The notes under the pieces are model-generated. The model ran no database searches. It saw only the letters and a program-made list of their open reading frames with translations, and was not told the DNA's origin. A stretch of DNA of 58,521 nucleotides from Halapricum sp. (GTDB taxonomy: Archaea > Halobacteriota > Halobacteria > Halobacteriales > Haloarculaceae): positions 1-58,521 of the forward strand of contig JAZKRQ010000001.1 of the NCBI GenBank assembly GCA_036628575.1, read 5' to 3'. The position numbers and the translations under genes are program-made. Shown here piece by piece: positions 1,364 to 48,260 of the stretch (positions are counted from its first letter, which is position 1; the number at the start of each line of letters is the position of its first letter).

Positions 1364-3301
1364 CTAGATCGATTCGATTCGGGTGTGGTCGATCTCGATG
1401 GCGGTGGCGTCCTCTTCGAGTAGCGCGACCACGAGATAGTCGGCGAATTCGCCGAAGTAATCCACGAGTTCGGCGATGCGTTCGGAGTCGATCGCTTCCA
1501 GCGAGTCGAGTAGCATGAATGGGACCGTCTCGTAGACCTCGTGGACGAGATATCCGGCCAGCGCAAACACCAACCCGGTCACCTCCCGCTCGGACTCGCT
1601 GAGGTGGTCGATCGTGTCCTCGTAGGTCGTGCCCGAGGGCGTCGATCGGACCACGTGTAACTCGAAGAACGTCTTGATAGCCTTGCGGCGACCCTCCCGG
1701 ACTTCCCGCTGGACACGCTCGATCCAGATCCGCTCCAAGTTATCGTAATCGAGCGCGCCGAGGACTTCCTCCATGTGGTCGTTGAACGCCTCGACCGCAT
1801 CTTCTTCCAGTGTTTCGACGCGAGTCCGGAGGTCAGTCAGTTCGTCGGTGATCCGCTCACGCTCGACCTCCAGTTCCGATTGTTCTTCCAGACGCGACTC
1901 GATCGCATCGATCTCACTCTCGACGTCCTCGAGATCGGTCTCCAAACGCCCGAGTTCGTATTCGAGTTCATTTGCCTCCCGGTGGAGGTCGAGGACTTCC
2001 TCGAACTGATCGGACTCGATGGCTTCAACGTCCGACTCCAGGTCTTTGACTCTCGATTCCAGCTCCGAGCGCCGCTCCTTGAGTTGCTCGACGCGGTCCT
2101 CGCGCCGTTTTAATTCGTCTTCGATCCGTGTGAGTTGCTGCTGGTACTCGTTCCGACGCGCCCGCTGTTCTTCCAGACCCTCCTTGTCAGCTTTCAAGTC
2201 GTCGAGTTCGTCGGCTATTTCGCGTTTCGCTTCGAGTTTCTCTTGGCGGAGGTCCCGAAGGTCGTCCAGCGTTCCCTCGATCTGCTCGCGGGGGACTTCG
2301 GAGCCACAGGTCCAGCAGACGACGTCGTCCTGCAGGAGTTCGTCAGTCGCGTGACCGCCATCGCCAGTCATCGCCTCGTAGACGTCAGTCCGCTCGCCCT
2401 CAAGCATCTCTTCGTTGAATCGGACCGTGCTCTGCAGGGAGTTGATCTCGCTGTCCAGCCGCCGGCGTCGTTCGCGCAGCCGGTCGATCTCGGATTCGAG
2501 GTGGTCGATGTCCTCTTCGGGCGTCTCCGGGAGCGCGTCGAGTTCCTCGCGAAGGGTTGCGCGGTCCTGCTTGAGCGATTCGATGCTCTCCCGTTCGGTC
2601 TCCAGGTCGTAGCGGACGTCTTCGAGATCGGTTCGGGCCTCGCGAAGTTCTTCGAGTTTCTCCTCGAGCTGTTGCTGTTCCCGACGCTGGGCTTGCACGT
2701 CGGCGTCCGCGGCGTCGATCTCCGCTTCCTTGTCGGCCAGCGCCGCCCGCGTCTCCTCGATCTCGTCTTGGAGATGGGCCCGTTCGGATTCGAGTTCCGG
2801 GAGCGCCTGCTTGCGCTGTTCGATCGTCTCGATCTCCTCATCGATCTCGGTCTTCTCCGATTCGAGGCGAGTGATTTCGGATTTGATCTCCTCGAGATCG
2901 ACCGGCCGCATGATGAGATCGCGCAGGTTCTGGCCGGTCGTGACCGCTCGCCTGGCCTCGTTTGACTCGAGGAGAAACGCGAACAGATCCGCCAGTTCGG
3001 GATCGTCGAGATACGGCTCGCCTTCGAACGAGACGGTATCGTCCCGGCGAACCAGTCGTCGTTTGTAGGTCGAGTCGCCGATCGCCAGCGTCACTTCTGC
3101 CTCGTCAGCGTCGCCCTTCATCGCGACGTCGTCGCTACCCATCGCGGCCATGATCGCCTGTAGGAACGACGTCCGATTGGTCGCATTCCGACCAGCGAGT
3201 ACGTTTACCCCGGGATTCAACTCGACAGTCGCGTCGTCGATCCCCCCGATATTACGGACCGAAACAGTCGCTTCTTTTTCTATTTGCTCCGTTTTAGCCA
3301 T
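1364..3301 (-). CDS. sph3: Archaea-specific SMC-like coiled-coil protein (Sph family)
   Basis: N-terminal GRNATNRTS P-loop variant, long acidic coiled coil, C-terminal LSESERE and LLDSLEAID; TATA-like AATATATA about 25 nt upstream of ATG 3301; adjacent to rdfA. Confidence 0.85.
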   Translation of the reverse strand: MAKTEQIEKEATVSVRNIGGIDDATVELNPGVNVLAGRNATNRTSFLQAIMAAMGSDDVAMKGDADEAEVTLAIGDSTYKRRLVRRDDTVSFEGEPYLDDPELADLFAFLLESNEARRAVTTGQNLRDLIMRPVDLEEIKSEITRLESEKTEIDEEIETIEQRKQALPELESERAHLQDEIEETRAALADKEAEIDAADADVQAQRREQQQLEEKLEELREARTDLEDVRYDLETERESIESLKQDRATLREELDALPETPEEDIDHLESEIDRLRERRRRLDSEINSLQSTVRFNEEMLEGERTDVYEAMTGDGGHATDELLQDDVVCWTCGSEVPREQIEGTLDDLRDLRQEKLEAKREIADELDDLKADKEGLEEQRARRNEYQQQLTRIEDELKRREDRVEQLKERRSELESRVKDLESDVEAIESDQFEEVLDLHREANELEYELGRLETDLEDVESEIDAIESRLEEQSELEVERERITDELTDLRTRVETLEEDAVEAFNDHMEEVLGALDYDNLERIWIERVQREVREGRRKAIKTFFELHVVRSTPSGTTYEDTIDHLSESEREVTGLVFALAGYLVHEVYETVPFMLLDSLEAIDSERIAELVDYFGEFADYLVVALLEEDATAIEIDHTRIESI

Positions 3302-3354
3302 GATTGGTGTACGGATCCGGGAATGTATATATTTTTTGCCTTCTGACACGCAGA

Positions 3355-3978
3355 TTATTCAGAGTCGTTCTCGATCAGTTCGAACACGTCGAACTGCTCG
3401 CCGGAATCGGTGTAGATCACCTGAACGTCCACGACGACGTCCACGTCGCCCTCGGGGACCAGCTCTGCTCGCTGGAGGGCCTCTATTGCGTCTTGTGTGA
3501 CCGCCGCCGATCTGTCCTGGAGTTTCTGGATGCGCTCGATCGCCGACTCGCGGCGCTGCTCGGGCGTCGGATCCGGTTGCTCGACGTCACGGTACTCACG
3601 AAGATAAGTGTGGATCGTCTGGTGAGTGACGAAGTCGCCTGTCATCGACTCGACGTCGATCCCGTTCCGTTCGAGTCGGCGCTCGACGCGCGTCCGAATG
3701 CCACCGCTCACGTCGTCGTCAGTCAACTGTGCGTAGAGACGATCGACGTCGACGTCGAGCACGCTCAATTCGCTCCGTTCGATCGCCGTCTCGAGAACGG
3801 CCCGGTTGAAGTAGTCGGCCAGTTCCCGGAGGCTCATCCCGTTATCGTCGGTAGCAAGCCATCGCCGCTCTAGCTCGTCCCCGATCTCGTCGAGACCGTA
3901 CGCCTCGATTACTCGCGCGACCTTGCTCCGGGGTTTCCCCCCGTCCGTCCGACAGGGGACGCTTTCGTTTTCGGGCAT
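3355..3978 (-). CDS. rdfA: Rod-determining factor RdfA-like protein
   Basis: KVARVIEAYGL, SLRELADYFN and DFVTHQTIHTYL motifs; directly upstream of the Sph gene as in Haloferax volcanii rdfA-sph3. Confidence 0.8.
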   Translation of the reverse strand: MPENESVPCRTDGGKPRSKVARVIEAYGLDEIGDELERRWLATDDNGMSLRELADYFNRAVLETAIERSELSVLDVDVDRLYAQLTDDDVSGGIRTRVERRLERNGIDVESMTGDFVTHQTIHTYLREYRDVEQPDPTPEQRRESAIERIQKLQDRSAAVTQDAIEALQRAELVPEGDVDVVVDVQVIYTDSGEQFDVFELIENDSE

Positions 3979-4166: not shown

Positions 4167-5114
4167 TCAGCTCAGATGCGGCTCGTTTTCAGGGCTCTCC
4201 AGCAGGTCTCGAACACCCTGTCGAATCGATTCCTCGCTCGACAGCTCGGGTTCCCAGCCCAGCGCGGCGAGTTTCTCGATCGAGAGACGCATCTTGGGGA
4301 CGTCGCCACTCCAGCCGCGATCCCCACCCGTGTATTCGTAGTCGGGATCGACCCCCATCTCTTCGCTGACGATGTCCGCGATACGTGTGACCGATGTCGT
4401 CGAGCGCGTCCCGAGGTTGTAGGTGTTCATCGGCTGGCCGGTATTCTCGACGACATGGGCCATTGCGTCAATACAGTCGTCGATGTACATGTAGGATTTC
4501 TCTTGCCGGCCGTCGCCGAGGATCGTCAGCGAGTCGGGGTCTTGCTGGAGTTTGTAGACGAAGTCGGGAACGACACCTGCGCCGAACCGGGGGCCGACGA
4601 TGTTCGCGAACCGGAAGTTCCACACAGTGAACCCACGCGTGTGGGCGTATACCGACAACAGGGCCTCTTCGGAGAGCTTCGCCGCGCCGTACTCGCTGAT
4701 CGGTTCCAGGGGTGCGTAATCCTCGGGCGTTGGACGTGGGGCCTCACCGTACACTGTCGACGAAGACGTGAAGAGGATATTCTCGACGCCGACATCCGCC
4801 ATTCGTTCGAGGAGGTTGTACGTCATCCCCTCATTCGACTCGAACTGCTCGCGGGGGCGGTCAGCGTTAACATACTTGTCCGCCGCCAGGTGAAACACCG
4901 CGTCGAGGTCTGGGGTGACGATATCCTCGACGATAGCAGGGTCTTCCAGATCGCCCTCGATAAACTCGGCTGCCTCGGGGACCGACTCCCGGATCCCATT
5001 CGAGAGGTCGTCTACCACCACTACATCGTTACCCGGAACGAGCCGTCGTGTCAGTGCGGATCCGATCAACCCGGCACCGCCCGTGACGAGTACACGGCTA
5101 TCAGTGAGTTCCAT
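4167..5114 (-). CDS. galE: NAD-dependent epimerase, probable UDP-glucose 4-epimerase (copy 1)
   Basis: GGAGLIG Rossmann motif, TSSSTVYG, YGAAK; clustered with galT and galK; start set by match to copy 2 (MELTD). Confidence 0.85.
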   Translation of the reverse strand: MELTDSRVLVTGGAGLIGSALTRRLVPGNDVVVVDDLSNGIRESVPEAAEFIEGDLEDPAIVEDIVTPDLDAVFHLAADKYVNADRPREQFESNEGMTYNLLERMADVGVENILFTSSSTVYGEAPRPTPEDYAPLEPISEYGAAKLSEEALLSVYAHTRGFTVWNFRFANIVGPRFGAGVVPDFVYKLQQDPDSLTILGDGRQEKSYMYIDDCIDAMAHVVENTGQPMNTYNLGTRSTTSVTRIADIVSEEMGVDPDYEYTGGDRGWSGDVPKMRLSIEKLAALGWEPELSSEESIRQGVRDLLESPENEPHLS

Positions 5115-5215
5115 ACACCCGCCGAATCGGAGTAATAGTATATAAATGCATTGGTGTCTTGGGACAGTGTGTCCAACAGGCTGCCAACGGAACACCGGCA
5201 TGGCCGATACAGTAT

Positions 5216-5232: not shown

Positions 5233-5345
5233 AAGGGCGGAAGATGAGTCCGAAAACATGAGTCCGGCGCATCGGGGGATTTCCGGGCGAGTTGATGGGC
5301 GAAACCCAAAAATATACCACTAAGGAATGATACTCATCTAGGTGT

Positions 5346-5483
5346 ATGCACAAGCGCGAGTTGGCGAATCACAACGACAAGTACGTGATTTTCTTCGAGT
5401 TCGACGACGAATCGGATAGCCTGGCGACTGTCGACGATCCAGTGGCCGAGAAGAGAAACGAGCAGCCGATAGTAGAGGAATAG
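5346..5483 (+). CDS. Conserved 45-aa small protein upstream of galT (not in ORF track)
   Basis: MHKRELANHNDKYVIFFEFDDESDSLATVDDPVAEKRNEQPIVEE*; stop ends 1 nt before the galT ATG; paralogue at 33974-34087. Confidence 0.75.
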   Translation: MHKRELANHNDKYVIFFEFDDESDSLATVDDPVAEKRNEQPIVEE

Positions 5484-5484
5484 T

Positions 5485-6477
5485 ATGACTGAGCGACGCT
5501 GGGACCCGACGCGACAGGAGTGGATCGTTACGGCGACGCACCGCCAGGAGCGGACGTTCAAACCGCCGAAGGACTACTGTCCGTTTTGCCCCACCGAAGA
5601 GGGTGCGGAGTATCCGACGGCGATTCCCGACACGGAATACGACATGGTCGTCGTCGAGAACGGATTCCCCTCGCTCCAGCCCGACCCGCCGGAACCCGCC
5701 GTCGAGGGGAGCGATCTCTACCCGGTCGACGAAGCCGACGGCCAGTGTGAAGTCGTCCTCTTCACCGAGGACCACGACGGGACGATGTCGACCGAGCCGG
5801 TCAGTCGTTTCGTCAAGCTGGTCAAACTCTGGCGGGATCGCTACGAGTCGCTGGGCACGATCGACGATCACGAGTACGTCTACATCTTCGAGAACAAGGG
5901 CGAGGAAGTCGGCGTCACGCTGCATCACCCCCACGGCCAGATTTACGCCTATCCGTTCGTCCCGCCGACGGTGAAAAAGGAGCTCGAATCCAGCCAACAG
6001 CACCTGCGAGAACACGGCCAGTGTCTGTTCTGCGACATCGTCGACGAGGAAATATCAGATGGGGAACGCGTCGTCGCGCAGAACGACTCGTTCACTGCGG
6101 TCGTCCCCTACTTCGCGCGGTGGGCCTACGAGGTCCACGTCTATGCGAACGACCATCTCCCGTCGCTCGCTGCCTTCGACGAGACACACGAGCGGGCACT
6201 CGGTTCGATCCTCAAGGAAGTCCTCGTCGCCTACGACGGGCTGTTCGACGACGAGATGCCGTACGTGATGGGTATGCATCAGCAACCGACCGACGGCACC
6301 GGCGAAGAGTACGCGCACTTCCACATAGAGTTCTATCCGCCCAGGCGGACCGCGGACAAGCTCAAGCACTTGGCGGGAAGCGAACTCGGTGCCGGCACCT
6401 ACATCAACAACAAACTGGCCGAGGAATCGGCAGCGGAACTCCGCGAAAGCCTCGACGCAGCGAAAGAACGACTGTAG
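5485..6477 (+). CDS. galT: Galactose-1-phosphate uridylyltransferase (copy 1)
   Basis: RRWDP N-terminus, CPFCP, FENKG, catalytic HPHGQ, CLFC, GSELGAG. Confidence 0.95.
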   Translation: MTERRWDPTRQEWIVTATHRQERTFKPPKDYCPFCPTEEGAEYPTAIPDTEYDMVVVENGFPSLQPDPPEPAVEGSDLYPVDEADGQCEVVLFTEDHDGTMSTEPVSRFVKLVKLWRDRYESLGTIDDHEYVYIFENKGEEVGVTLHHPHGQIYAYPFVPPTVKKELESSQQHLREHGQCLFCDIVDEEISDGERVVAQNDSFTAVVPYFARWAYEVHVYANDHLPSLAAFDETHERALGSILKEVLVAYDGLFDDEMPYVMGMHQQPTDGTGEEYAHFHIEFYPPRRTADKLKHLAGSELGAGTYINNKLAEESAAELRESLDAAKERL

Positions 6478-6778
6478 AGTGCGGTCGAAAGGGAGAGAGG
6501 GTGAGTCATGTGGTACGGAATCGTACCAAGTGGGTGGCGTGACCGGTAGCAGCGGACCTGATCCGGTCTCGGGGCATCGGTTCGGGAGCGCCGACGTCAA
6601 CAGGAATGCCCCAGTCCGAATAGGTGGCCCGTAGATATTTATAATTTGTTGTATTTGAGATAGATATCTCACTGTTACAGTGACAGCTACCAGAAATATC
6701 ACGATGGTTCCTTCGACGCATAGAAAAGTCACCGACGATACCGATCTATTTAAAACATTGGGTGTCGTCTGTCATCGT

Positions 6779-7858
6779 ATGCGCACCGAACACGACTACC
6801 GTGTGGTTTCTCCGGGCCGCGTGAACCTCATCGGCGAACACACAGACTACACCGGCGGTCACGTGCTACCGATGGCGACGGATCTACACACACGACTGGA
6901 CGCGACCCCTGCCGAAGACGTGACCGTTCGATCGGCGGCGTTCGAAGAGGAGCTATCGTTCAGCATGAGCGAACGAAAGCGCAACGACGACTGGACCGAC
7001 TACGTCAAGGGCTGTTATGCGGTGCTCGACGAGGAGGGGTACCGGCCCGGAGGCTTCGATGGAGTCCTCTCCGGAGATCTCCCACTCGGGTCGGGCCTGA
7101 GTTCCTCTGCAAGTCTCGAACTGGCGATCATGGCCTTTCTGAATGACGCCTACGATCTCGGGCTTTCGAGAGAGCGCATGGCGGAGCTGAGCCAGCGCGT
7201 CGAGAACGACTTCGTCGGCGTGTCCTGTGGGATCATGGATCAGTTCGCCGTCGCGCTGGGTCAGGACGGACACGCGCTCCGGATCGACACCGGGACCCTG
7301 GAATACGAGTCGGTGGCGTTCCCCGAGGACGTCCAGGTGGTCGTCTACCACACCGGCGTCGAGCGGGAACTGGTCGATTCGGAGTACAATCAGCGACGGG
7401 AGACCGTCGAATCGGCACTCTCGACGCTAGAAGTCGGTTCCTCGAAGGAGATCACAGAAGACGATCTCGCAGCATTGCCGGACCTCCAGCGTCAGCGCCT
7501 CGGATACGTGGCTCGCGAGAACGAGCGCGTGCGTCGCGCGACGGCGGCACTCGAAGACGGCGACATCGAAACGTTCGGCGAGTTACTCCACAAGGCTCAT
7601 CGCGACATCGCCGAGAACTACGAGGCCAGTTGTGAGGAGTTAGACTTCGTCGTCGAGACCGCTGTCGAACACGGCGCCTACGGCGCACGGCTCACCGGGG
7701 CTGGCTGGGGCGGTGCGTCGATCGCGTTGGTCGACGCAGCCGAAGCGTCGTCGTTCGCGCGATCGCTACACAAGACCTATCAAGATCACTTCCCAGAGCA
7801 CGACCCGCACTTCCATTTGATCACGCCTTCGGCAGGCGTAAACGTCTCCAGGATCTGA
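6779..7858 (+). CDS. galK: Galactokinase (copy 1)
   Basis: PGRVNLIGEHTDY, PLGSGLSSSA, CGIMDQ, GARLTGAGWGG; TATTTAAAA about 25 nt upstream of ATG 6779. Confidence 0.95.
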   Translation: MRTEHDYRVVSPGRVNLIGEHTDYTGGHVLPMATDLHTRLDATPAEDVTVRSAAFEEELSFSMSERKRNDDWTDYVKGCYAVLDEEGYRPGGFDGVLSGDLPLGSGLSSSASLELAIMAFLNDAYDLGLSRERMAELSQRVENDFVGVSCGIMDQFAVALGQDGHALRIDTGTLEYESVAFPEDVQVVVYHTGVERELVDSEYNQRRETVESALSTLEVGSSKEITEDDLAALPDLQRQRLGYVARENERVRRATAALEDGDIETFGELLHKAHRDIAENYEASCEELDFVVETAVEHGAYGARLTGAGWGGASIALVDAAEASSFARSLHKTYQDHFPEHDPHFHLITPSAGVNVSRI

Positions 7859-33006: not shown

Positions 33007-33981
33007 TCAAATAGCGTCCCGGAGTTCCGCGGCCGACTCCTCGGCGAGCTTGTTGTTGATGTAGGTGCCGGCCCCGAGTTCGCTCCCGGCGAGGTGCTTG
33101 AGCTTGTCTTCGGTCCTGTATGGCGGATAGAACTCCATGTGGAAGTGGCTGTATTCGCTTTCGTCCGCCTCGCCCGTCGGCTCCTGGTGCATGGCCATAA
33201 CGTATGGCATCTCGAAGTCGAATAGCGCGTCGTAGCGCTGCTGTACCTCTTTGAGCAGCTGACCGAGCTGTTGTTCGTGAGTGTTATCGAACGCCGCGAG
33301 CGACGGGAGATGATCGTTCGCGTAGACGTGGACCTCGTACGCCCATCGCGCGAAATACGGCACGACTGCAGTAAAAGCGTCGTTTTCGGCGACCACACGC
33401 TCACTCGTGTCCCGCTCTTCGGTCACAAGGTCACAGAACAGACAGCGTCCGTGTTCGTCGAGGTGGTCCCGGCTCGATTGGAGCTCTGTCCGGACCTTCG
33501 GCGGGACGAACGGGTAGGCGTAGATCTGGCCGTGGGGATGGTGCAGCGTGACGCCGACGTCTTCGCCGCGGTTCTCGAAGATGTAGACGTACTCGTGGTC
33601 GGCCTTCTCGCCGAGGGTCTCGTAGCGGTCCCGCCAGAGCTTCACGAGCTTGACGAACCGCGAGACCGGCTCCTGGGACATCGTGCCGTCGTGCTCGGGG
33701 GTGAACAGGACGACCTCGCACTGGCCGTTGGCCGGTTCGGCGGGGAGGAGGTCAGACCCCTCGATGGCGGGTTCGGGCGGATCGGGCTGCAGCGACGGGA
33801 ACCCGTTCTCGACGACGGCCATGTCGTAGTCCGGTTCGGGGATCGCCGTCGGGTACTCCGCGCCCTCCTCGGTCGGGCAGAACGGACAGTAGTCCTCCGG
33901 CGGTTTGAACGTCCGTTCCTGGCGATGGGTCGCCGTGATAACCCACTCCTGGAGCGTCGGATCCCAGCGCCGTTCAGTCAT
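33007..33981 (-). CDS. galT: Galactose-1-phosphate uridylyltransferase (copy 2)
   Basis: MTERRWDP start matching copy 1; HPHGQ; GSELGAG. Confidence 0.95.
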   Translation of the reverse strand: MTERRWDPTLQEWVITATHRQERTFKPPEDYCPFCPTEEGAEYPTAIPEPDYDMAVVENGFPSLQPDPPEPAIEGSDLLPAEPANGQCEVVLFTPEHDGTMSQEPVSRFVKLVKLWRDRYETLGEKADHEYVYIFENRGEDVGVTLHHPHGQIYAYPFVPPKVRTELQSSRDHLDEHGRCLFCDLVTEERDTSERVVAENDAFTAVVPYFARWAYEVHVYANDHLPSLAAFDNTHEQQLGQLLKEVQQRYDALFDFEMPYVMAMHQEPTGEADESEYSHFHMEFYPPYRTEDKLKHLAGSELGAGTYINNKLAEESAAELRDAI

Positions 33982-34087
33982 CGTCCCCCTCCGACTGTCC
34001 GTCGACTGCCGCCAACTCGTCCGATTCGTCGAACTTGAAGAGTACGACGTACTTGTCGTTGTGATTGCGAACGCGTCGCTTTTGCAT
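33974..34087 (-). CDS. Conserved 37-aa small protein upstream of galT (not in ORF track)
   Basis: MQKRRVRNHNDKYVVLFKFDESDELAAVDGQSEGDDD*; overlaps the galT start by 8 nt. Confidence 0.75.
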   Translation of the reverse strand: MQKRRVRNHNDKYVVLFKFDESDELAAVDGQSEGDDD

Positions 34088-34180
34088 GGCTCTGGTGTGA
34101 TCCGTGATGTTCTAAATACATATTTGTACCGGTTATCGGAAACCATAACGTTAATAAAATAGTCATCGAGAGTCATAGAC

Positions 34181-35131
34181 ATGGAACTCACTGACAAACT
34201 GATTCTGGTGACAGGCGGCGCTGGGTTGATCGGTGCGCCGCTGGCCGAGCGACTGGTCGCGGACAACGACGTCGTCGTCGTCGACGACCTCTCGAACGGG
34301 ATTCGCGAGTCCGTTCCCGAGCAAGCGGCGTTCGTCGAGGGCGACCTGACCGATCCCGAGGTCGTCGCTGACGTGGTAACGAGCGACCTGGATGCAGTGT
34401 TTCATCTGGCGGCGGACAAGTACGTCAACGCCGAACGGCCGCGCGAGCAGTTCGAATCCAACGAGGCGATGACCTACAACTTGCTTGAGCGCATGGAGGA
34501 GGTCGGCGTCGAGAACGTGCTGTTCACCTCTTCCTCGACGGTCTACGGCGAGGCACCGCGGCCGACGCCCGAGGATTACGCGCCCCTGGAGCCGATCAGC
34601 GAATACGGTGCGGCGAAACTCGCCGAAGAAGGCCTGGTTTCAGTGTACGCGCACACGCGGGGGTTCACGGTGTGGAACTTCCGGTTCGCCAACATCGTCG
34701 GGCCGCGCTATGGCGCTGGGGTCGTGCCGGACTTCGTCTACAAACTCCAGGAGGATCCCGACTCGCTGACGATCCTGGGCGACGGCCGCCAGGAGAAATC
34801 CTACATGTACATTGACGACTGCATCGATGCGATGTGCCACGTCGTCGAACACGCCGACGAGCCGATGAACACCTACAACCTGGGAACGCGGACGACGACG
34901 TCGGTCACACGGATCGCGGACATCGTCAGCGACGAACTGGGCGTCGATCCCGAGTACGAATACACGGGCGGCGACCGCGGCTGGGAGGGCGACGTGCCAA
35001 AGATGCGCCTCTCGATCGAGAAACTGGCTGCCCTGGGCTGGGAACCGACACTCTCCAGCGACGACACCATCCGCCAGGGCGTGCGTGACCTGCTCGAACG
35101 CCCCGAGAACGAGCCTCACCTGAGTGGCTGA
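34181..35131 (+). CDS. galE: NAD-dependent epimerase, probable UDP-glucose 4-epimerase (copy 2)
   Basis: GGAGLIG, YGAAK; very similar to 4167-5114. Confidence 0.85.
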   Translation: MELTDKLILVTGGAGLIGAPLAERLVADNDVVVVDDLSNGIRESVPEQAAFVEGDLTDPEVVADVVTSDLDAVFHLAADKYVNAERPREQFESNEAMTYNLLERMEEVGVENVLFTSSSTVYGEAPRPTPEDYAPLEPISEYGAAKLAEEGLVSVYAHTRGFTVWNFRFANIVGPRYGAGVVPDFVYKLQEDPDSLTILGDGRQEKSYMYIDDCIDAMCHVVEHADEPMNTYNLGTRTTTSVTRIADIVSDELGVDPEYEYTGGDRGWEGDVPKMRLSIEKLAALGWEPTLSSDDTIRQGVRDLLERPENEPHLSG

Positions 35132-36220
35132 TCACGCCGTGCGGTCGACAGCGACCCCGCCCGAGGGGGAGACCAGGAAAAACCGCGAGTCGTGCTCGGG
35201 ATACTGCTGTTCGTATCGTTCGTGAACGGCATTGGCGATGCGTTCTGCCCGTGATCGATCGACGAGTGCGACAGCGGCACCTCCCCAGCCGGCACCGGTT
35301 AGTCGTGCTCCGTAAGCCCCTTCGTCTACGGCCACGTCGACGAAAAAGTCCAGTTCCTCACAGCTCGCTTCGTAATTGGTTGCGATGTCTTCGTGCGCGG
35401 TTACGAGGAGTTCCCCGACACGCTCAACGTCACCTTCGGACAGTGCTGCCGTCGCCTCCTGTACGCGTTCGTTCTCGCGATGGACGAATCCGAGTCGTCG
35501 ACGCTGACGATCGGAGAGCGTTTCCAGATCCCCTGGATCCACGTCTTTCGAAGTGTCGGCGTTCAGGGCGTCCAGTCCGGCCTCCACGGTCCCACGACGA
35601 TGATTGTACTCCGAGTCGACCAACGCACGTTCGACGCCGGTATGGTAAACGAGTATCTGCACCTCGTCGGGAACCGGCACGTGATCGTACTGGAGTGTCT
35701 CGGTGTCGAGATGGAGCGCGTGGTTCGCTCTCGTGAGCGCGACGGCGAATTGATCCATGATGCCACAGGAGACACCGACGAAGTCGTTTTCCACTCGCTG
35801 TCCCAGCAGTGCTAACCGCTCGCGCGAAAGACCGAGGTCATACGCGTCGTTCAAGAACCCGAGAACTGCCAGTTCGAGGCTCGCCGAGGAACTCAGGCCA
35901 GACCCAAGTGGTAACGTACCAGAGATCTTTCCGCGGAAACCGCCTGGAGCGTATCCCTCTTTACGAAGAACGGCGTAGCAGCCTTTTAGATAATCAGCCC
36001 AGTCGCTCGTTCGCGTCGTATCGTCTACAGTGAAGGTCCGCTGTTCGTCGAACGCGGCTGAGGTGACTGTCACCGTCTCGTCATCAGTCGGTGCGGCACG
36101 TAATTCTGTGTGGAGATCGGTCGCGACGGGCAAGACATATCCGCCCGAGTAATCCGTGTGTTCGCCGATCAGATTTACCCTGCCCGGTGAAATTACATGA
36201 TATGCATACTCCTCGTTCAT
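35132..36220 (-). CDS. galK: Galactokinase (copy 2)
   Basis: PGRVNLIGEHTDY, GSGLSSSA, CGIMDQ, GARLTGAGWGG. Confidence 0.95.
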   Translation of the reverse strand: MNEEYAYHVISPGRVNLIGEHTDYSGGYVLPVATDLHTELRAAPTDDETVTVTSAAFDEQRTFTVDDTTRTSDWADYLKGCYAVLRKEGYAPGGFRGKISGTLPLGSGLSSSASLELAVLGFLNDAYDLGLSRERLALLGQRVENDFVGVSCGIMDQFAVALTRANHALHLDTETLQYDHVPVPDEVQILVYHTGVERALVDSEYNHRRGTVEAGLDALNADTSKDVDPGDLETLSDRQRRRLGFVHRENERVQEATAALSEGDVERVGELLVTAHEDIATNYEASCEELDFFVDVAVDEGAYGARLTGAGWGGAAVALVDRSRAERIANAVHERYEQQYPEHDSRFFLVSPSGGVAVDRTA

Positions 36221-36374
36221 GATCAGTATCGGGTTGCTGTTCACAACGATAGAATAAAAATATTTTGTCGTTTCTAACCAGGCTGAGTTTATTTTGGTAG
36301 TCATCAAAAGGTGCTATCATTGCCGCGCCGTCCACCACAATCGGTTTGTATCCAGAGAGAGATGCATACTGACA

Positions 36375-37244
36375 ATGTGTGCTGTATCCATTACCGAGAT
36401 TGACGACCCGGAGTGGGGAAATTGCGTACAGCTGGCAAACGGAACTGTCCGGGCCCGGGTAGCGACCGAGGTCGGCCCACGAGTGCTCCATTTCGGGTTC
36501 GAAGACGGGGCAAACGAGTTTCGCACGTATCCCGAGGAGCGCGACGGGTTCCCGCTATATGGTGGTCACCGACTCTGGCACGCACCGGAGAAGCAGTCCC
36601 GCACGCACGTGCCCGATGACTCGCCCATCGAGTACGAAATCCAGAACGGATCCGTTTCCGTTACCCGGGATACTGATCCCGGATCGTCTTTGCGCCGCGA
36701 ACTCGAACTCCAGCTGTCGCCGTCCCGACCGTCGATGACGGTCACACATCGCATTTACAACGAAGGTGCCTGGCCCGTCGAGTTCGCTCCATGGGGACTC
36801 ACGGTACTGAAGGCCGGCGGAACCGCCGTATTGCCCTTCGACCGACAGGAGCCGGCGGACTCCGTGCAACCCGATCGGTCCGTCCAGTTCTGGCCATACA
36901 CCAATCCCGGGGACGACCGCCTTCGCTTCGACCGACGGGCGATCACGGTGCAACAGGACGACGACGCCGACGAACCGCTAAAGATCGGTACCACGACGAG
37001 CGAAGAGTGGACAGCATACATTCGAGACGGCCGCGCGTTCCGCAAGGAAATGTCGATCGATCTTGACGGGACGTATCCCGACGGTGGGAGTGCTGTCGAA
37101 GTCTACACGCGACCCGGATTCCTCGAACTCGAGACGCTCGGACCGCTCGAGACTGTCGAGCCGGGCGGGTGTGCTACGCACACCGAAGAGTGGACGCTCC
37201 TGGACGACGTTTCCGACGTCGACGACCTTGTCGGCGGGACCTGA
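36375..37244 (+). CDS. Uncharacterised protein, probable galactose-mutarotase-like fold (DUF4380-like)
   Basis: VGPRVL, YGGHRLWHAPE, YPDGG, ELETLGPL, HTEEW; divergent from galK. Confidence 0.65.
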   Translation: MCAVSITEIDDPEWGNCVQLANGTVRARVATEVGPRVLHFGFEDGANEFRTYPEERDGFPLYGGHRLWHAPEKQSRTHVPDDSPIEYEIQNGSVSVTRDTDPGSSLRRELELQLSPSRPSMTVTHRIYNEGAWPVEFAPWGLTVLKAGGTAVLPFDRQEPADSVQPDRSVQFWPYTNPGDDRLRFDRRAITVQQDDDADEPLKIGTTTSEEWTAYIRDGRAFRKEMSIDLDGTYPDGGSAVEVYTRPGFLELETLGPLETVEPGGCATHTEEWTLLDDVSDVDDLVGGT

Positions 37245-44346: not shown

Positions 44347-44360
44347 TACGCGGGAGGGTC

Positions 44361-44442
44361 ATAGTGATTACTGTAGGTCTGTTCCGGGTCGACCGCACGA
44401 CTGAGTGCGGTCGTACCGGTAAATCGCTACAGTAATCACCAT
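44361..44442. mobile_element. 82-bp TIR miniature element, type A
   Basis: atagtgattactgtag...ctacagtaatcaccat (15/16); central hairpin gaccgcac-N6-gtgcggtc. Confidence 0.75.
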
Positions 44443-45023
44443 CAGTTCCCCTGGATCGCGTCGATGACCATCGCGGCGGCGATGATCGGCTCTTTGGGGA
44501 CGTCGCTCGCGTCGTCGATGACGATGTCGTATGTATCCTTCAGCGAGAACTGCCCAGAGATGTTGCCGACGTGGTTGCCATCGACATCCGAGATTTCGTA
44601 CTTGTGCGGGATCCACCCCCCGAACGGAACGACGTTCCGCGCGAGCGTAACCATAGCACCGCGAGAGTTGATCTCGGCTAGTTTCCGCTCGTCGCGGGCG
44701 TCCCGGATCTTCCAGGTGTCCTGAAGGATCGAGTAGTCGTTATCCAGGATCACCAGGTCTTCGCCGGTCTGGGCGTCGGTGAGCACGTAGTTGCCGGCCA
44801 CGTCGACGATTCCGCCGGCCTTGACCGTGAAGACCTCGTTACCCTCGGCGTCGACGAACGGGAACTCCTCTTTCATCTTGAGCATCTTCTGTTTGCCTCG
44901 CAGGACGACGTTACCCTCGGCGTCCTCGGCGCGGTACTTGTTGCGAATGAGCGACTGGATCACCGTGTACCGATCCCCCGAAAGGTCGACCCCCTGGATA
45001 TCGTAGTCTCGTCGTTGACTCAT
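44442..45023 (-). CDS. LURP-one/scramblase (tubby C-terminal-like) protein
   Basis: KQKMLKMKEEFPF, ISGQFSLKDTYDI, AAAMVIDAI. Confidence 0.8.
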   Translation of the reverse strand: MSQRRDYDIQGVDLSGDRYTVIQSLIRNKYRAEDAEGNVVLRGKQKMLKMKEEFPFVDAEGNEVFTVKAGGIVDVAGNYVLTDAQTGEDLVILDNDYSILQDTWKIRDARDERKLAEINSRGAMVTLARNVVPFGGWIPHKYEISDVDGNHVGNISGQFSLKDTYDIVIDDASDVPKEPIIAAAMVIDAIQGN

Positions 45024-45149: not shown

Positions 45150-45272
45150 ACCCATAGATTTCGCCCGGGAATGTCGATTCATACTGATTACTGTAGGTCT
45201 GTTCCGGGTTGATCGCACGGCGTCGTGCGGTCGTACCGGTAGACCGTTACAGTAATCACTATCAATCCCTAT
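45144..45272. mobile_element. Disrupted type B TIR element containing a type A element
   Basis: 45144-45167 matches the reverse complement of 57672-57695 at 23/24; 45264-45272 (aatccctat) equals the type B terminus. Confidence 0.6.
45181..45262. mobile_element. 82-bp TIR miniature element, type A
   Basis: atactgattactgtag...ttacagtaatcactat; close copy of 44361-44442. Confidence 0.75.
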
Positions 45273-45507: not shown

Positions 45508-45555
45508 GCCCAACGTATTGGGTCCGGCATTGATATCGTAACCGAAACTAGTTGT
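45508..45555. promoter_or_regulatory. Candidate Bat upstream activator sites between brz and brp
   Basis: cccaacgtattgggt and accgaaactagttg resemble the bop-regulon UAS; a similar accaaaccacttggg lies at 50732-50746. Confidence 0.45.
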
Positions 45556-45560
45556 GTACG

Positions 45561-46640
45561 ATGTCAGAACACGCCTCTCGACCGACGGTACGGCTCGTCC
45601 CCGACGTCGCAGGCGGGACGACGCTAGGGGTGTCACGTGCGGCATTGCTCGCGTTGATCGGCGTCTTCGCCGGGGCGACGCTGGTCGGCATCGAGCTGTC
45701 GTTGCGGACGCAGGCGATCGTCTACCTGTTCGGGATGGTCGCGATGAACCTCCCGCACGGCGGGTTCGAACACTTCAACAATCTCCGGCGGCGGACGGCC
45801 TCCTTCCAGCTCCGGTACGTGGCGCTGTACCTGATGAGCATCGCCGTGTTCGTGGCGTTGCTCTTTTTCGCGCCTGTGGCCGGGCTGGCTCTGGCGATCA
45901 GCGTCGCCGTAGCGAAGGGTGGCCACGGCGGGTTGCACGTCATGGACGTCACCTACGGAACGGACCACCTGCGAAGCGGGGGCCAACGGGCACTGGCGGC
46001 ACTCGTCCGTGGCGGGGCCGTAATGGCCGTCCCAATCGTGTTCTTCCCCGAGACGTTCCACACGTTCAGCGACATCATGGTCAACATATTCAATCCCGGG
46101 GGGCTCGCGACGGTGAGCCAATACTTCGATCTCACCCGATGGCTTATCGGGGCCGGATACGGGACACTCGTCGTTGCCCACCTCTCGCTGGGATACGTCC
46201 GTTCGGCAGGCACAGGTTCCTACGTCGCCGACGCCGCCGAAACGCTACTTCTGGTCGCCTACTTCGCCGTCGTTCCCGTGGTCGTCGCCGTCGGGCTGTA
46301 CTTCCCGCTGTGGTACTCCGCCCGGCAGGTCGCCCGGACGACGGCCGTCGAGGACGGCACCGACGACGAAGCGACCGCCGACGGCCTGCTTGCCGTGCTT
46401 GACAGCGACGACACGCGACTGGTCGCACTGGGTGCCTGGGGCGTACTGATCGCCGGGTCCATCGCGACCTTCGGACTGGCGGCACTGATCTGGACGCTCT
46501 CGCCCCAGCCACTGGGCGGCGCGAGCCTCCCGCTCGGGCTCGTGGCGTTCTGGAGTATTTTCATCAGTATTATTGCACTCCCGCACGTCGTCATCGGATC
46601 GTGGTACGATCGTGACCGCGGGATCTGGTACGTACCCTGA
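45561..46640 (+). CDS. brp: Brp/Blh beta-carotene 15,15'-dioxygenase
   Basis: NLPHGGFEH, YFPLWYSARQ, IALPHVV; multi-TM; context between brz and bat. Confidence 0.88.
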   Translation: MSEHASRPTVRLVPDVAGGTTLGVSRAALLALIGVFAGATLVGIELSLRTQAIVYLFGMVAMNLPHGGFEHFNNLRRRTASFQLRYVALYLMSIAVFVALLFFAPVAGLALAISVAVAKGGHGGLHVMDVTYGTDHLRSGGQRALAALVRGGAVMAVPIVFFPETFHTFSDIMVNIFNPGGLATVSQYFDLTRWLIGAGYGTLVVAHLSLGYVRSAGTGSYVADAAETLLLVAYFAVVPVVVAVGLYFPLWYSARQVARTTAVEDGTDDEATADGLLAVLDSDDTRLVALGAWGVLIAGSIATFGLAALIWTLSPQPLGGASLPLGLVAFWSIFISIIALPHVVIGSWYDRDRGIWYVP

Positions 46641-46642
46641 CT

Positions 46643-48235
46643 ATGTTCGATGGTAACCCACTTGACGGCGAGGACGTGACAGTAATCGGCGGCGGGTTCG
46701 GCGGACTCTCGTCGGCCGCGTATCTGGCCGACGCCGGGGCCGACGTGACCGTGCTCGAACGGAACGAGCGCCTCGGCGGTGCGGCAAACCTCATCGAGAG
46801 TGACGGGTTCCGGTTCGACACCGGACCGTCGTGGTATCTCATGCCCGACGTCTTCGAGCGTTTCTTCGGGCACTTCGATCGAACTCCGGAGGACTACTAC
46901 GAACTGGAGCGGCTAGACCCTCACTACCGGGTGTTCTACGCCGACAGTGATCCTCAGCCGGAGAAGGGATCACCCTACAGCGACGAGATCGAGGTGGGGT
47001 GTGACTGGGTGAGTACGACGCCCGACCTCGACCAGTGCCGGGAGATCTTCGCGGCCTACGAAGAGGGAGGCGGCGAGACCTTCGACGAGTATCTCGCCAA
47101 GGCCGAGTACTCTTACGAAGTCGGGATGGAACACTTCGTCTACGAGGACCGCTCGCGGTTCCGGGACATGATAGACCGCGACGTCGCCCGCGCCGGCCGG
47201 GGGCTTTCACTCCTTGGCTCGATGCAGGACCACGTCGAGGATTACTTCGAGGAGCCGAAACTCCAGCAGTTGCTCCAGTACACCCTCGTGTTTCTCGGCG
47301 GGTCACCGCACAACACGCCGGGGCTGTACAACCTGATGGCCCACGTCGACTACAACCTGGGCGTCTACTATCCCGAGGGTGGGATGTACAGCGTCGTCGA
47401 AGCGCTGGCCGAACTCGGCGAGGAACTGGGCGTCGAGTACCGGACCGGCGTCGAGGTGACAGACGTCCAGGACACTACCAGCGGGCTGGCCCTCCAAACG
47501 AGCGCGGGCCGCCACCGTACAGGCGTGACGGTCGCCAACGCCAACCCGGCCTACGTCGAACGGGAACTGCTCTCGCCGGCCAAACGCGACCACGATCCGA
47601 GCCACTGGGAGGAGAAGACCTACGCGCCCTCGGCGATCATGTACTACCTCGGAATCGAGGGCGACGTGGGTCCGCTGGCGCATCACTCGCTGGTGTTCCC
47701 GGAAGACTGGGATTCCCACTTCGAGACGATCTTCGACGAGCCAGCCTGGCCGGACGAACCGGCCTACTACCTCTCCGTGCCCTCGAAGACGGACGACACC
47801 GTCGCGCCTGAGGGCCACCACGCGGTCGTGATCCTCGTACCGATCGCGCCAGGGCTGGACGACGACGAGGAGACTCGCGATCGCTACCGCGAGAAGATAC
47901 TCGAAGAACTGGCCGAGGATATCGGCGTCGACCTCCGCGAACGGATCGTATTCGAGCGGTCGGCCTGCGTCTCCGACTACATCGAGCAGTACAACTACCC
48001 ACAGGGGACGGCACTGGGGCTGGCTCACACGTTGCGTCAGACCGGACCGCTCCGGCCGTCTCATCGGTCCACGAACGTGGATGACCTCTACTACGTCGGC
48101 AGCTACACCAACCCCGGGATCGGCGTCCCGATGACGCTGATCAGTGGCCAGCACGTCGCCGAGGCGGTCGTCGAGGACCGCACGCGAACCGGCGTCACCT
48201 CGGGATTGCCGCGGGTGATCAAGGAGCGGCTTTAA
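46643..48235 (+). CDS. Phytoene desaturase family protein (CrtI/CrtD)
   Basis: IGGGFGGL, FDTGPSWYLMPD, GTALGLAHTL, PGIGVP. Confidence 0.88.
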   Translation: MFDGNPLDGEDVTVIGGGFGGLSSAAYLADAGADVTVLERNERLGGAANLIESDGFRFDTGPSWYLMPDVFERFFGHFDRTPEDYYELERLDPHYRVFYADSDPQPEKGSPYSDEIEVGCDWVSTTPDLDQCREIFAAYEEGGGETFDEYLAKAEYSYEVGMEHFVYEDRSRFRDMIDRDVARAGRGLSLLGSMQDHVEDYFEEPKLQQLLQYTLVFLGGSPHNTPGLYNLMAHVDYNLGVYYPEGGMYSVVEALAELGEELGVEYRTGVEVTDVQDTTSGLALQTSAGRHRTGVTVANANPAYVERELLSPAKRDHDPSHWEEKTYAPSAIMYYLGIEGDVGPLAHHSLVFPEDWDSHFETIFDEPAWPDEPAYYLSVPSKTDDTVAPEGHHAVVILVPIAPGLDDDEETRDRYREKILEELAEDIGVDLRERIVFERSACVSDYIEQYNYPQGTALGLAHTLRQTGPLRPSHRSTNVDDLYYVGSYTNPGIGVPMTLISGQHVAEAVVEDRTRTGVTSGLPRVIKERL

Positions 48236-48260
48236 TGACCATCCGCCACTACGCGAGGGT

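What the first reader, a model, noticed from the sequence alone, without database searches (positions are those of the whole stretch)
5346..5483. Unlisted microprotein conserved in front of both galT genes
Seen: 5346-5483 (+, 45 aa) and 33974-34087 (-, 37 aa) align as MHKRELANHNDKYVIFFEFDDESDSLATVD vs MQKRRVRNHNDKYVVLFKFD-ESDELAAVD. That is 20 identities in 30 columns with a frame-preserving 3-nt gap. Each has a TATA-like run about 25-35 nt before its ATG and abuts or overlaps the galT start. Recalled: actinobacterial GalT has an N-terminal extension of similar pattern (K..RLADGRELVYYD) that these GalTs lack. Inference: a split-off GalT partner subunit or a leader peptide controlling galT. The NHNDKYV DNA is identical in both copies, so a nucleic-acid role is also possible.
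Basis: partly seen in the sequence, partly recalled or inferred. Interest (0 to 1): 0.8.

Follow-up and report, generated by a model that had tools for sequence, protein, structure and literature searches.

The report
Microprotein subunit that completes GalT enzyme
A tiny unnamed gene in front of both galT copies belongs to a widespread family of bacterial and archaeal microproteins that is predicted to bind the galactose enzyme GalT and supply a piece of its fold that other species carry within the enzyme itself.

Summary
Confirmed, and larger than reported. Both small ORFs are conserved coding sequences: 20 of 30 identities, pN/pS 0.28 in frame. Translation is not shown.

They belong to a family without a Pfam or NCBIfam model: 1,287 clusters at 50% identity, and 145 of the top 150 are 100 aa or shorter. 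It tracks one GalT clade exactly in the genomes searched: 13 of 13 among 121 Haloarculaceae, and 29 of 29 among 301 Bacillota.

The same ~20-residue motif is fused to the N-terminus of GalT in Cyanobacteria, Deinococcus-Thermus and Actinobacteria, and occasionally to GalE, GalK or a GH2 glycosidase.

ESMFold2 docks it as an extra antiparallel strand on GalT residues 52-60 (score 0.93, best control 0.02; mark reached by 116 of 157 solved complexes and 2 of 215 mismatches). In a model of a fused homologue it overlays a strand that Arabidopsis At5g18200 supplies from its own chain.

Frameshifting is excluded because all three frames occur. A leader-peptide or DNA role is unlikely because galE sometimes separates the two genes.

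Best reading: a split-off beta-hairpin subunit, likely made alongside GalT through translational coupling. Binding and necessity are untested. I found no paper describing it.

The parts
5346..5483 (+). Microprotein gene, copy 1 (45 aa). Residues 1-20 form the conserved beta-hairpin core; the acidic tail is variable.
   Evidence: (AF2 strands 2-7 and 13-18, pLDDT 92-93 over residues 1-20)
5485..6477 (+). galT copy 1, class I GalT (330 aa) without the N-terminal hairpin. Predicted docking surface: residues 44-49, 52-60, 111-118.
   Evidence: (TIGR00209 above cut-off)
5308..5316 (+). Weak TATA-like run 30-38 nt before the microprotein ATG; a leaderless or short-leader start is inferred
   Evidence: sequence; not tested
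5475..5487 (+). SD-like GAGGA, stop TAG, 1-nt gap, galT ATG: a junction suited to translational coupling (inferred)
   Evidence: PMC6728339 passages
33974..34087 (-). Microprotein gene, copy 2 (37 aa)
33007..33981 (-). galT copy 2 (81% identical to copy 1); its ATG overlaps the microprotein stop by 8 nt
34112..34118 (-). TATA-like TATTTAG 25-31 nt before the copy 2 ATG (inferred promoter)
   Evidence: sequence; not tested
33974..33992 (-). SD-like GGAGG followed by the ATGACTGA start/stop overlap
4167..5117 (-). NAD-dependent epimerase (GalE-like), divergent from cassette 1 (context)
   Evidence: below the galE cut-off
6680..7858 (+). Galactokinase of cassette 1 (context; start codon uncertain)
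34181..35131 (+). NAD-dependent epimerase (GalE-like), divergent from cassette 2 (context)
35132..36307 (-). Galactokinase-family gene of cassette 2 (context)

Best explanation
The small ORF is conserved as coding sequence and likely encodes a soluble beta-hairpin microprotein that is predicted to bind GalT as a second subunit, adding an edge strand to its beta-sheet. Shown: the ORFs, their conservation, the family, co-occurrence with one GalT clade, and fused forms. Predicted: residues 12-19 pair antiparallel with GalT strand 52-60, F17 packs on helix 111-118, K12 sits by E58, and there are two peptides per GalT dimer. Inferred: this fills a slot that other GalT-fold proteins fill from their own chain. 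It would brace the strand that leads into N59, which aligns with the E. coli uracil-binding loop (role recalled), beside the zinc knuckle, so GalT of this clade would fold or work poorly without it. Inferred: in haloarchaea the microprotein is the first cistron and galT is translated by termination-reinitiation at its stop, giving matched amounts. The acidic tail is likely just the former linker plus the SD site.
For: (1) Coding selection: pN/pS 0.28 over codons 8-20 in frame, against 0.87 and 1.48 in shifted frames, 14 haloarchaeal sequences. (2) A profile from haloarchaeal peptides alone, run over 13,228 six-frame segments, gave 19 non-seed hits at E<10. Of these, 18 lie 47-180 nt upstream of galT on the same strand (best E 2e-4). 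(3) Co-occurrence. In 121 Haloarculaceae genomes, GalT occurs in 13 (15 copies) and the peptide at E<1e-5 in the same 13 (15 copies). In 301 Bacillota genomes, the 29 with the peptide are the 29 with the top-scoring GalT among 104 GalT-like positives, and all 29 hits lie 75-596 nt upstream of galT. (4) Fused at the GalT N-terminus in P0274, P0279-P0282, P0305, P0086. Also in Gloeothece, Thermus, Deinococcus, Methylomagnum, Kitasatospora and Nonomuraea; profile-profile probability 94%, E 1e-7. (5) Complex prediction 0.93 against best control 0.02; mark reached by 116 of 157 solved complexes and 2 of 215 mismatches; runs agree in at least 81% of contacts; partner pLDDT at least 73. (6) AF2 of a fused GalT folds the extension as a hairpin (strands 4-9 and 15-20, pLDDT 87-88). 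Its structural alignment to At5g18200 starts at model residue 7 or 14 against chain residue 70 or 74, whereas Pyrobaculum, E. coli and human GalT align only from residue 45 or 71-72. (7) All split and fused GalTs fall in one 86-row clade (SH 96) holding none of the 20 genome-negative rows. Predicted interface positions differ by group, e.g. [FV]57-[EDQ]58 in 109 of 110 against 0 of 25. (8) Junctions within 15 nt in 37 of 51 metagenome and 21 of 28 Bacillota cases. Short overlaps are enriched among subunits of heteromeric complexes (PMC10666635, abstract).
Against: No experimental evidence of translation, binding or necessity. The complex score is model confidence; it used my own alignments and a 2+2 layout unlike the calibration. 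It may draw on memory of fused GalT sequences or of the At5g18200 strand. Eight GalTs inside the clade show no motif in their metagenome flanks: L053, L058, L066, L082 and L095 with 2 kb upstream, L086 with 535 nt, L041 and L049 with under 150 nt; their genomes could not be searched. The sister clade (e.g. L016, L157-L169) and Pyrobaculum 6K5Z have neither the hairpin nor the long in-chain insertion, so the fold can do without a strand there. The haloarchaeal profile alone does not match the named fused N-termini (E 0.06); the link runs through the bacterial microproteins. Co-occurrence and signature counts come from related genomes and are confounded with clade. VIA-align gives only range ends, so the residue register with At5g18200 is inferred. 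The tree is FastTree with a long-branch warning in the outgroup.
Confidence: 0.74

Rival explanations
1. It binds GalT at the predicted site but as a regulator or tether rather than a structural need: a switch on GalT activity, or a docking tag that brings GalK, GalE or a glycosidase to GalT when fused to them.
For: Fusions to the GalE N-terminus (P0291), GalE C-terminus (L146), GalK N-terminus (P0301, P0302), GalK C-terminus (P0303) and a GH2 C-terminus (P0296, matching L098). The site lies next to the N59 loop. The sister clade lacks it.
Against: Those proteins are single-member clusters and may be chance stop-loss merges with operon neighbours. Permanent fusion to GalT in several phyla and tight coupling fit a fixed subunit better than a switch. 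The tail is unconserved, so the free form shows no second binding surface.
Confidence: 0.15
2. A cis-acting leader ORF: its translation controls galT by coupling or stalling, and the peptide product does not matter.
For: It is the first ORF after a TATA-like run with -8, -4 or +1 junctions. In Haloferax, downstream genes of overlapping pairs depend on upstream translation (PMC6728339 passages). L011 keeps the chain with a second ATGACTGA and a 10-codon bridge ORF.
Against: A galE gene lies between it and galT in L037, L045 and L100, and about 500 nt in L060 and L145. The amino-acid pattern is conserved across domains and inside fused proteins. No terminator was found, and RNA folding is no better than shuffles (z 1.32 and -0.80). 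Coupling probably exists but does not explain the conserved sequence.
Confidence: 0.06
3. Programmed frameshift or readthrough joins the small ORF to galT to make the fused enzyme.
For: 13 of the first 14 haloarchaeal loci, including both window copies, have galT in the +1 frame.
Against: Frames +1, +2 and 0-with-stop occur 21, 23 and 7 times among 51 metagenome loci and 15, 6 and 7 times among 28 Bacillota loci. Haloarchaeal L011 and L107 are +2. galT keeps its own start and SD-like site, and galE sometimes intervenes.
Confidence: 0.02
4. A decaying remnant of a former fusion, or a DNA/RNA element, with no current protein function.
For: 20 identical bases in the two window copies; variable tails.
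Against: Purifying selection in frame with synonymous variation at those codons; identity expected at about 0.1; retained in 15 of 15 and 29 of 29 cases, and not found without this GalT in the genomes searched.
Confidence: 0.03

Closest known systems
N-terminal extension of class I GalT in Actinomycetota, Cyanobacteriota, Deinococcota and some Gammaproteobacteria (DGR-x-L motif)
   Same: Homologous motif (hhalign 94%), same GalT clade, same predicted hairpin.
   Different: Here it is a separate gene. No solved structure holds the extension by sequence search, and Pfam and NCBIfam GalT models start after it.
Arabidopsis ADP-glucose phosphorylase At5g18200 (PDB 1Z84, 1ZWJ, 2H39) and B. cereus DUF4931 protein (4QVU)
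   Same: GalT fold; an in-chain segment (At5g18200 from about residue 70) aligns structurally with the hairpin of the fused model.
   Different: The strand comes from an internal loop with no sequence likeness to the microprotein; different substrate and a distant clade.
E. coli, human and Pyrobaculum aerophilum class I GalT (1HXP/1GUP, 5IN3, 6K5Z)
   Same: Catalytic core and HPH motif.
   Different: Single-gene homodimers; structural alignment covers nothing of the hairpin.
Small-protein subunits and beta-sheet augmentation / strand complementation (e.g. CydX, KdpF, AcrZ; pilus donor strands; recalled, no call)
   Same: A small, often unannotated, operon-encoded chain completes or tunes a larger protein.
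   Different: The named small proteins are membrane helices. This one is a soluble hairpin with fused, free and re-fused states across bacteria and archaea.
Translational coupling by termination-reinitiation (PMC6728339, PMC10666635)
   Same: Short overlaps or gaps with an SD-like site inside the upstream gene.
   Different: Explains the junction, not the conserved peptide; -8 and +1 dominate in the haloarchaeal loci rather than -4 and -1.

Membership tests
Split enzyme (fission) with a trans-acting subunit | The small gene is homologous to part of a fused orthologue | tested here: met
   the direct haloarchaeal-to-named-fused comparison is not significant
Split enzyme (fission) with a trans-acting subunit | Separate ORF with its own start and stop under coding selection | tested here: met
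Split enzyme (fission) with a trans-acting subunit | Strict co-occurrence with the partner that lacks the segment | tested here: met
   13 of 13 genomes; 29 of 29; 8 metagenome loci unresolved
Split enzyme (fission) with a trans-acting subunit | Physical complex | tested here: inconclusive
   Predicted only: 0.93 against best control 0.02; mark reached by 116 of 157 solved and 2 of 215 mismatched pairs
Split enzyme (fission) with a trans-acting subunit | Translated and needed for activity or stability | not testable with these tools
   Needs Ribo-seq, MS and enzyme assay
Class I GalT (partner protein) | PF01087 + PF02744 and TIGR00209 above cut-off; HPH motif and CxxC intact | tested here: met
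Class I GalT (partner protein) | UDP-glucose:galactose-1-phosphate uridylyltransferase activity | not testable with these tools
   Inferred from galK and epimerase neighbours
Attenuator / leader peptide | Fixed position immediately before the controlled gene | tested here: not met
   galE intervenes in L037, L045, L100; fused to other enzymes
Attenuator / leader peptide | Terminator or unusually stable RNA structure | tested here: not met
   copy 1 only; bacterial-type scan; both copies
Programmed ribosomal frameshift | Constant frame relation between the two ORFs | tested here: not met
Any curated small-protein family (Pfam, NCBIfam) | Match to a family model | tested here: not met
   61 of 64 aligned members scanned; best E 0.024 in Pfam and 0.095 in NCBIfam, to unrelated families;

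The most novel reading that the evidence does not exclude
The hairpin is a portable docking tag of the Leloir pathway. As a free microprotein it is an obligate subunit that licenses GalT. Fused to GalK, GalE or a glycosidase, it makes that enzyme complete GalT's fold and so locks successive enzymes into a channelling complex that keeps galactose-1-phosphate from accumulating.
Probability: 0.2. Interest if true: 0.85.

Novelty: new variant of a known kind. Interest (0 to 1): 0.68.

Why it matters
GalT is treated as a single-gene homodimer. If this holds, a large clade of it is a two-chain enzyme whose second chain is a 20-60 aa protein that annotation misses or calls hypothetical. That clade includes haloarchaea and Bacillota here, with the microprotein also named from Acidobacteria and Armatimonadota. 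It would give a function to more than a thousand microprotein clusters. It predicts that galT from these organisms will underperform when cloned alone. It also offers a natural series (fused, free, re-fused to neighbours) for studying how enzymes split and how microprotein subunits arise, and possibly a ~20-residue natural docking pair.

Tried and rejected
Family and structure searches: Pfam and NCBIfam gave no family. The PDB sequence search with the peptide profile gave only chance hits (E 0.36 or worse). The ESM Atlas returned only unnamed hypothetical clusters, top score 0.90, a lead only.

Expression: the RNA-run search listed no RNA holder, which is no evidence either way.

Earlier scan findings: none, by sequence or by words.

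Literature: eight searches listed no paper whose title or abstract opening describes this protein; I saw listings only, apart from the papers named in the full report. The library lacks most subscription journals. Papers I recall on haloarchaeal galactose catabolism and on Pyrobaculum GalT were not seen and could bear on whether a Halorhabdus GalT was assayed alone. No supplements were read.

Frameshift reading: attractive, rejected.

Corrections and noise in my own runs: one search mislabelled L022-L026 and L048 as fused; they are +1-frame ORFs with long overlaps. Four weak family hits at E 0.04-0.09 have no galT nearby and were set aside. Three long proteins among the top 150 (700-1,409 aa) match by 7-10 short repeated stretches and look like chance hits, so the 1,287 count includes some noise.

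Unresolved: whether the eight motif-less in-clade metagenome loci carry the gene elsewhere in their genomes.

Full report
Setting. The window comes from a haloarchaeon; the nearest named GalT relatives are from Halapricum (83%) and Halorhabdus (77%). It carries two paralogous galactose cassettes, each with galT, a galactokinase-family gene and a divergent NAD-dependent epimerase, among glycosidases and sugar ABC transporters. The genome has two galT copies, both in the window. GalT is rare in Halobacteria: 10 of 401 genomes, all in one family. It is closest to bacterial enzymes such as those of Halanaerobiales at about 65%, and it groups with bacterial rows at SH 100. PMC3102087 (passages) notes the Leloir pathway only in H. 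utahensis among ten haloarchaea; PMC4257568 (passages) notes it for H. tiamatea.

Observation. Both ORFs exist as stated, with 20 of 30 identities; 0 of 10,000 shuffles reach the score. The identical DNA covers six codons plus two bases and is expected about one time in ten. Other haloarchaea vary synonymously at those codons.

A coding gene. A homologous ORF precedes galT in 14 of 14 haloarchaeal loci (two are the window's own and L013 repeats L008) and in three further loci (L108 repeats L014). Across 14 sequences pN/pS is 0.28 for codons 8-20 in frame, and 0.87 and 1.48 in the shifted frames; over codons 2-20 it is 0.50.

A wide family. A profile from haloarchaeal peptides alone, run over six frames of 101 loci, gave 19 non-seed hits at E<10, 18 of them 47-180 nt upstream of galT. 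After iteration, 73 of 101 loci had the motif within 400 nt and three more at 596-1108 nt. Six more had divergent copies, three of them weak at E 0.02-0.3. The 64-row profile (basic N-terminus, DGRY-[LI]-I-[YF]-Y-x-F) finds 1,287 representatives at E<=0.001. Of the top 150, 145 are 100 aa or shorter, median 52. A second search gave 693 short proteins; those with names among the 120 listed are 'hypothetical', from Bacillota, Armatimonadota and Acidobacteria. No Pfam, NCBIfam or PDB match was found.

Co-occurrence. In 121 Haloarculaceae genomes, GalT and the peptide occur in the same 13 genomes, 15 copies each. In 301 genomes of the phylum of a Clostridia MAG (Bacillota), 104 have a GalT-like gene. 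The 29 with the highest scores (411 bits or more; next 392) are the 29 with the peptide, all 75-596 nt upstream of galT. Many are MAGs of unstated completeness, and kin are not independent. In a 110-row FastTree (159 rows thinned at 80% identity within label), all split and fused GalTs lie in one 86-row clade (SH 96) with none of the 20 genome-negative rows. Fused rows are scattered, so fusion or fission happened more than once; the direction is not established. Eight in-clade metagenome loci show no motif in their flanks and remain open.

Fused states. The motif is at the GalT N-terminus in P0274, P0279-P0282, P0305, P0086 and loci L050, L070, L076, L080, L083. Some of these keep an in-frame start at the core, so both forms may be made. 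Six named records (Gloeothece, Thermus, Deinococcus, Methylomagnum, Kitasatospora, Nonomuraea) carry a DGR-x-L extension. It matches the family profile at 94%, E 1e-7 (that profile includes five fused rows) but not the haloarchaeal profile alone. The motif is also fused to either end of GalE and GalK and to a GH2 C-terminus; the proteins among these are single-member clusters. In L037, L045 and L100 the order is microprotein-galE-galT. Position is therefore free within the operon, as expected of a product acting in trans.

Structure. Alone, residues 2-7 and 13-18 are predicted as a hairpin. With two GalT chains and two peptides, ESMFold2 scores 0.92-0.93 against a best control of 0.02. The mark was reached by 116 of 157 solved complexes and 2 of 215 mismatches, counts that hold only roughly here. 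Runs agree in at least 81% of contacts and partner pLDDT is at least 73. Peptide 12-19 runs antiparallel to GalT 52-60 (15 with 56, 17 with 54, 13 with 58), residue 17 touches helix 111-118, and 44-49 also contacts. N59 aligns with the E. coli TNDF loop; its role in uracil binding and the nearby zinc ligands are recalled. In an AF2 model of fused P0279 the extension is a confident hairpin on a low-confidence linker. Structural alignment to At5g18200 begins at model 7 or 14 against chain 70 or 74 (Z 27.3-27.6, rmsd 2.1-2.6, 253-258 aligned), the loop just before its strand 87-94. Pyrobaculum, E. coli and human GalT align only from model 45 or 71-72. I infer that the peptide fills a slot that At5g18200-like proteins fill in cis. 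The structurally characterised class I GalTs named in bioRxiv 10.64898/2026.09.13.751320 (passages) are E. coli, human and Pyrobaculum, plus At5g18200, and none of these sequences carries the hairpin. The pass is thus not from a solved copy of this complex, although memory of the fused sequences or of that in-cis strand is possible. Predicted interface positions separate hairpin-bearing from genome-negative GalTs (T/S45-x-[VILM]-P48 100 of 110 against 0 of 25; D118 105 of 110 against 2 of 25), confounded with clade.

Expression logic. TATA-like runs lie 25-40 nt before the haloarchaeal starts, junctions are mostly -8, +1 or -4, and SD-like sites sit in the tail. PMC6728339 (passages) shows strict coupling at overlapping pairs in Haloferax. 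PMC10666635 (abstract) reports that about 20 nt of distance nearly abolishes coupling and that short overlaps are enriched among complex subunits. Coupling is thus likely and fits a subunit. All three frames occur, which excludes a conserved frameshift.

Verdict. A real, widespread, unnamed microprotein family, best explained as the separated beta-hairpin subunit of one GalT clade (0.74). A regulatory or tethering role at the same site is the main rival (0.15). Split enzymes and strand complementation are known kinds, so this is a new variant. I found no description in eight literature searches, within a library that lacks most subscription journals. Translation, binding and necessity are not shown.

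Noticed in passing
L011 (G198), between the microprotein stop and galT: The ATGACTGA junction is duplicated, creating a 10-codon ORF that overlaps both the microprotein stop and the galT start by 8 nt and would keep a coupling chain intact.
   Followed up: partly
L022-L026, L048, L124, L140, L148; L029 similar at 59 nt: The microprotein ORF runs about 60-86 nt into galT in the +1 frame instead of stopping at the -8 overlap, so coupling there may differ.
   Followed up: partly
window 44359-44449 and 45179-45269: Two 91-nt imperfect palindromes (86% identical, 820 nt apart) flank a LURP-one-related gene at 44442-45023 (-); they look like a small non-coding mobile or REP-like repeat.
   Followed up: partly
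window 1364-3978 (-): RdfA followed by an SMC-like coiled-coil protein next to cassette 1. An archaea-specific SMC-related gene also precedes the cassette on a Halapricum desulfuricans plasmid, so cassette 1 may be plasmid-type DNA.
   Followed up: no
window 4167-5117 and 34181-35131: The epimerases beside both galT genes score far below the galE cut-off where tested (copy 1: 133 against 262 bits) and may be a non-canonical Leloir epimerase.
   Followed up: no
window 36294-37244 (+): No Pfam hit, but matches the TTE1925 mutarotase family below cut-off: a likely GalM substitute beside cassette 2.
   Followed up: partly
window 45552-50246: Beta-carotene dioxygenase (Brp/Blh-like), a flavin amine-oxidase-family gene and a Bat-type PAS/GAF/HTH regulator: a retinal or carotenoid cluster.
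   Followed up: no
L170-L176 (Bacillota): A common GalT-like clade close to Arabidopsis ADP-glucose phosphorylase At5g18200 (L170: E 4e-84), with a 10-residue in-chain insertion at the slot the microprotein is predicted to fill; probably not true GalT.
   Followed up: partly
G753 contig C115 (L141): Two galT-like segments on one contig: one in frame with the hairpin and matching only positions 1-154, another matching 12-322.
   Followed up: no
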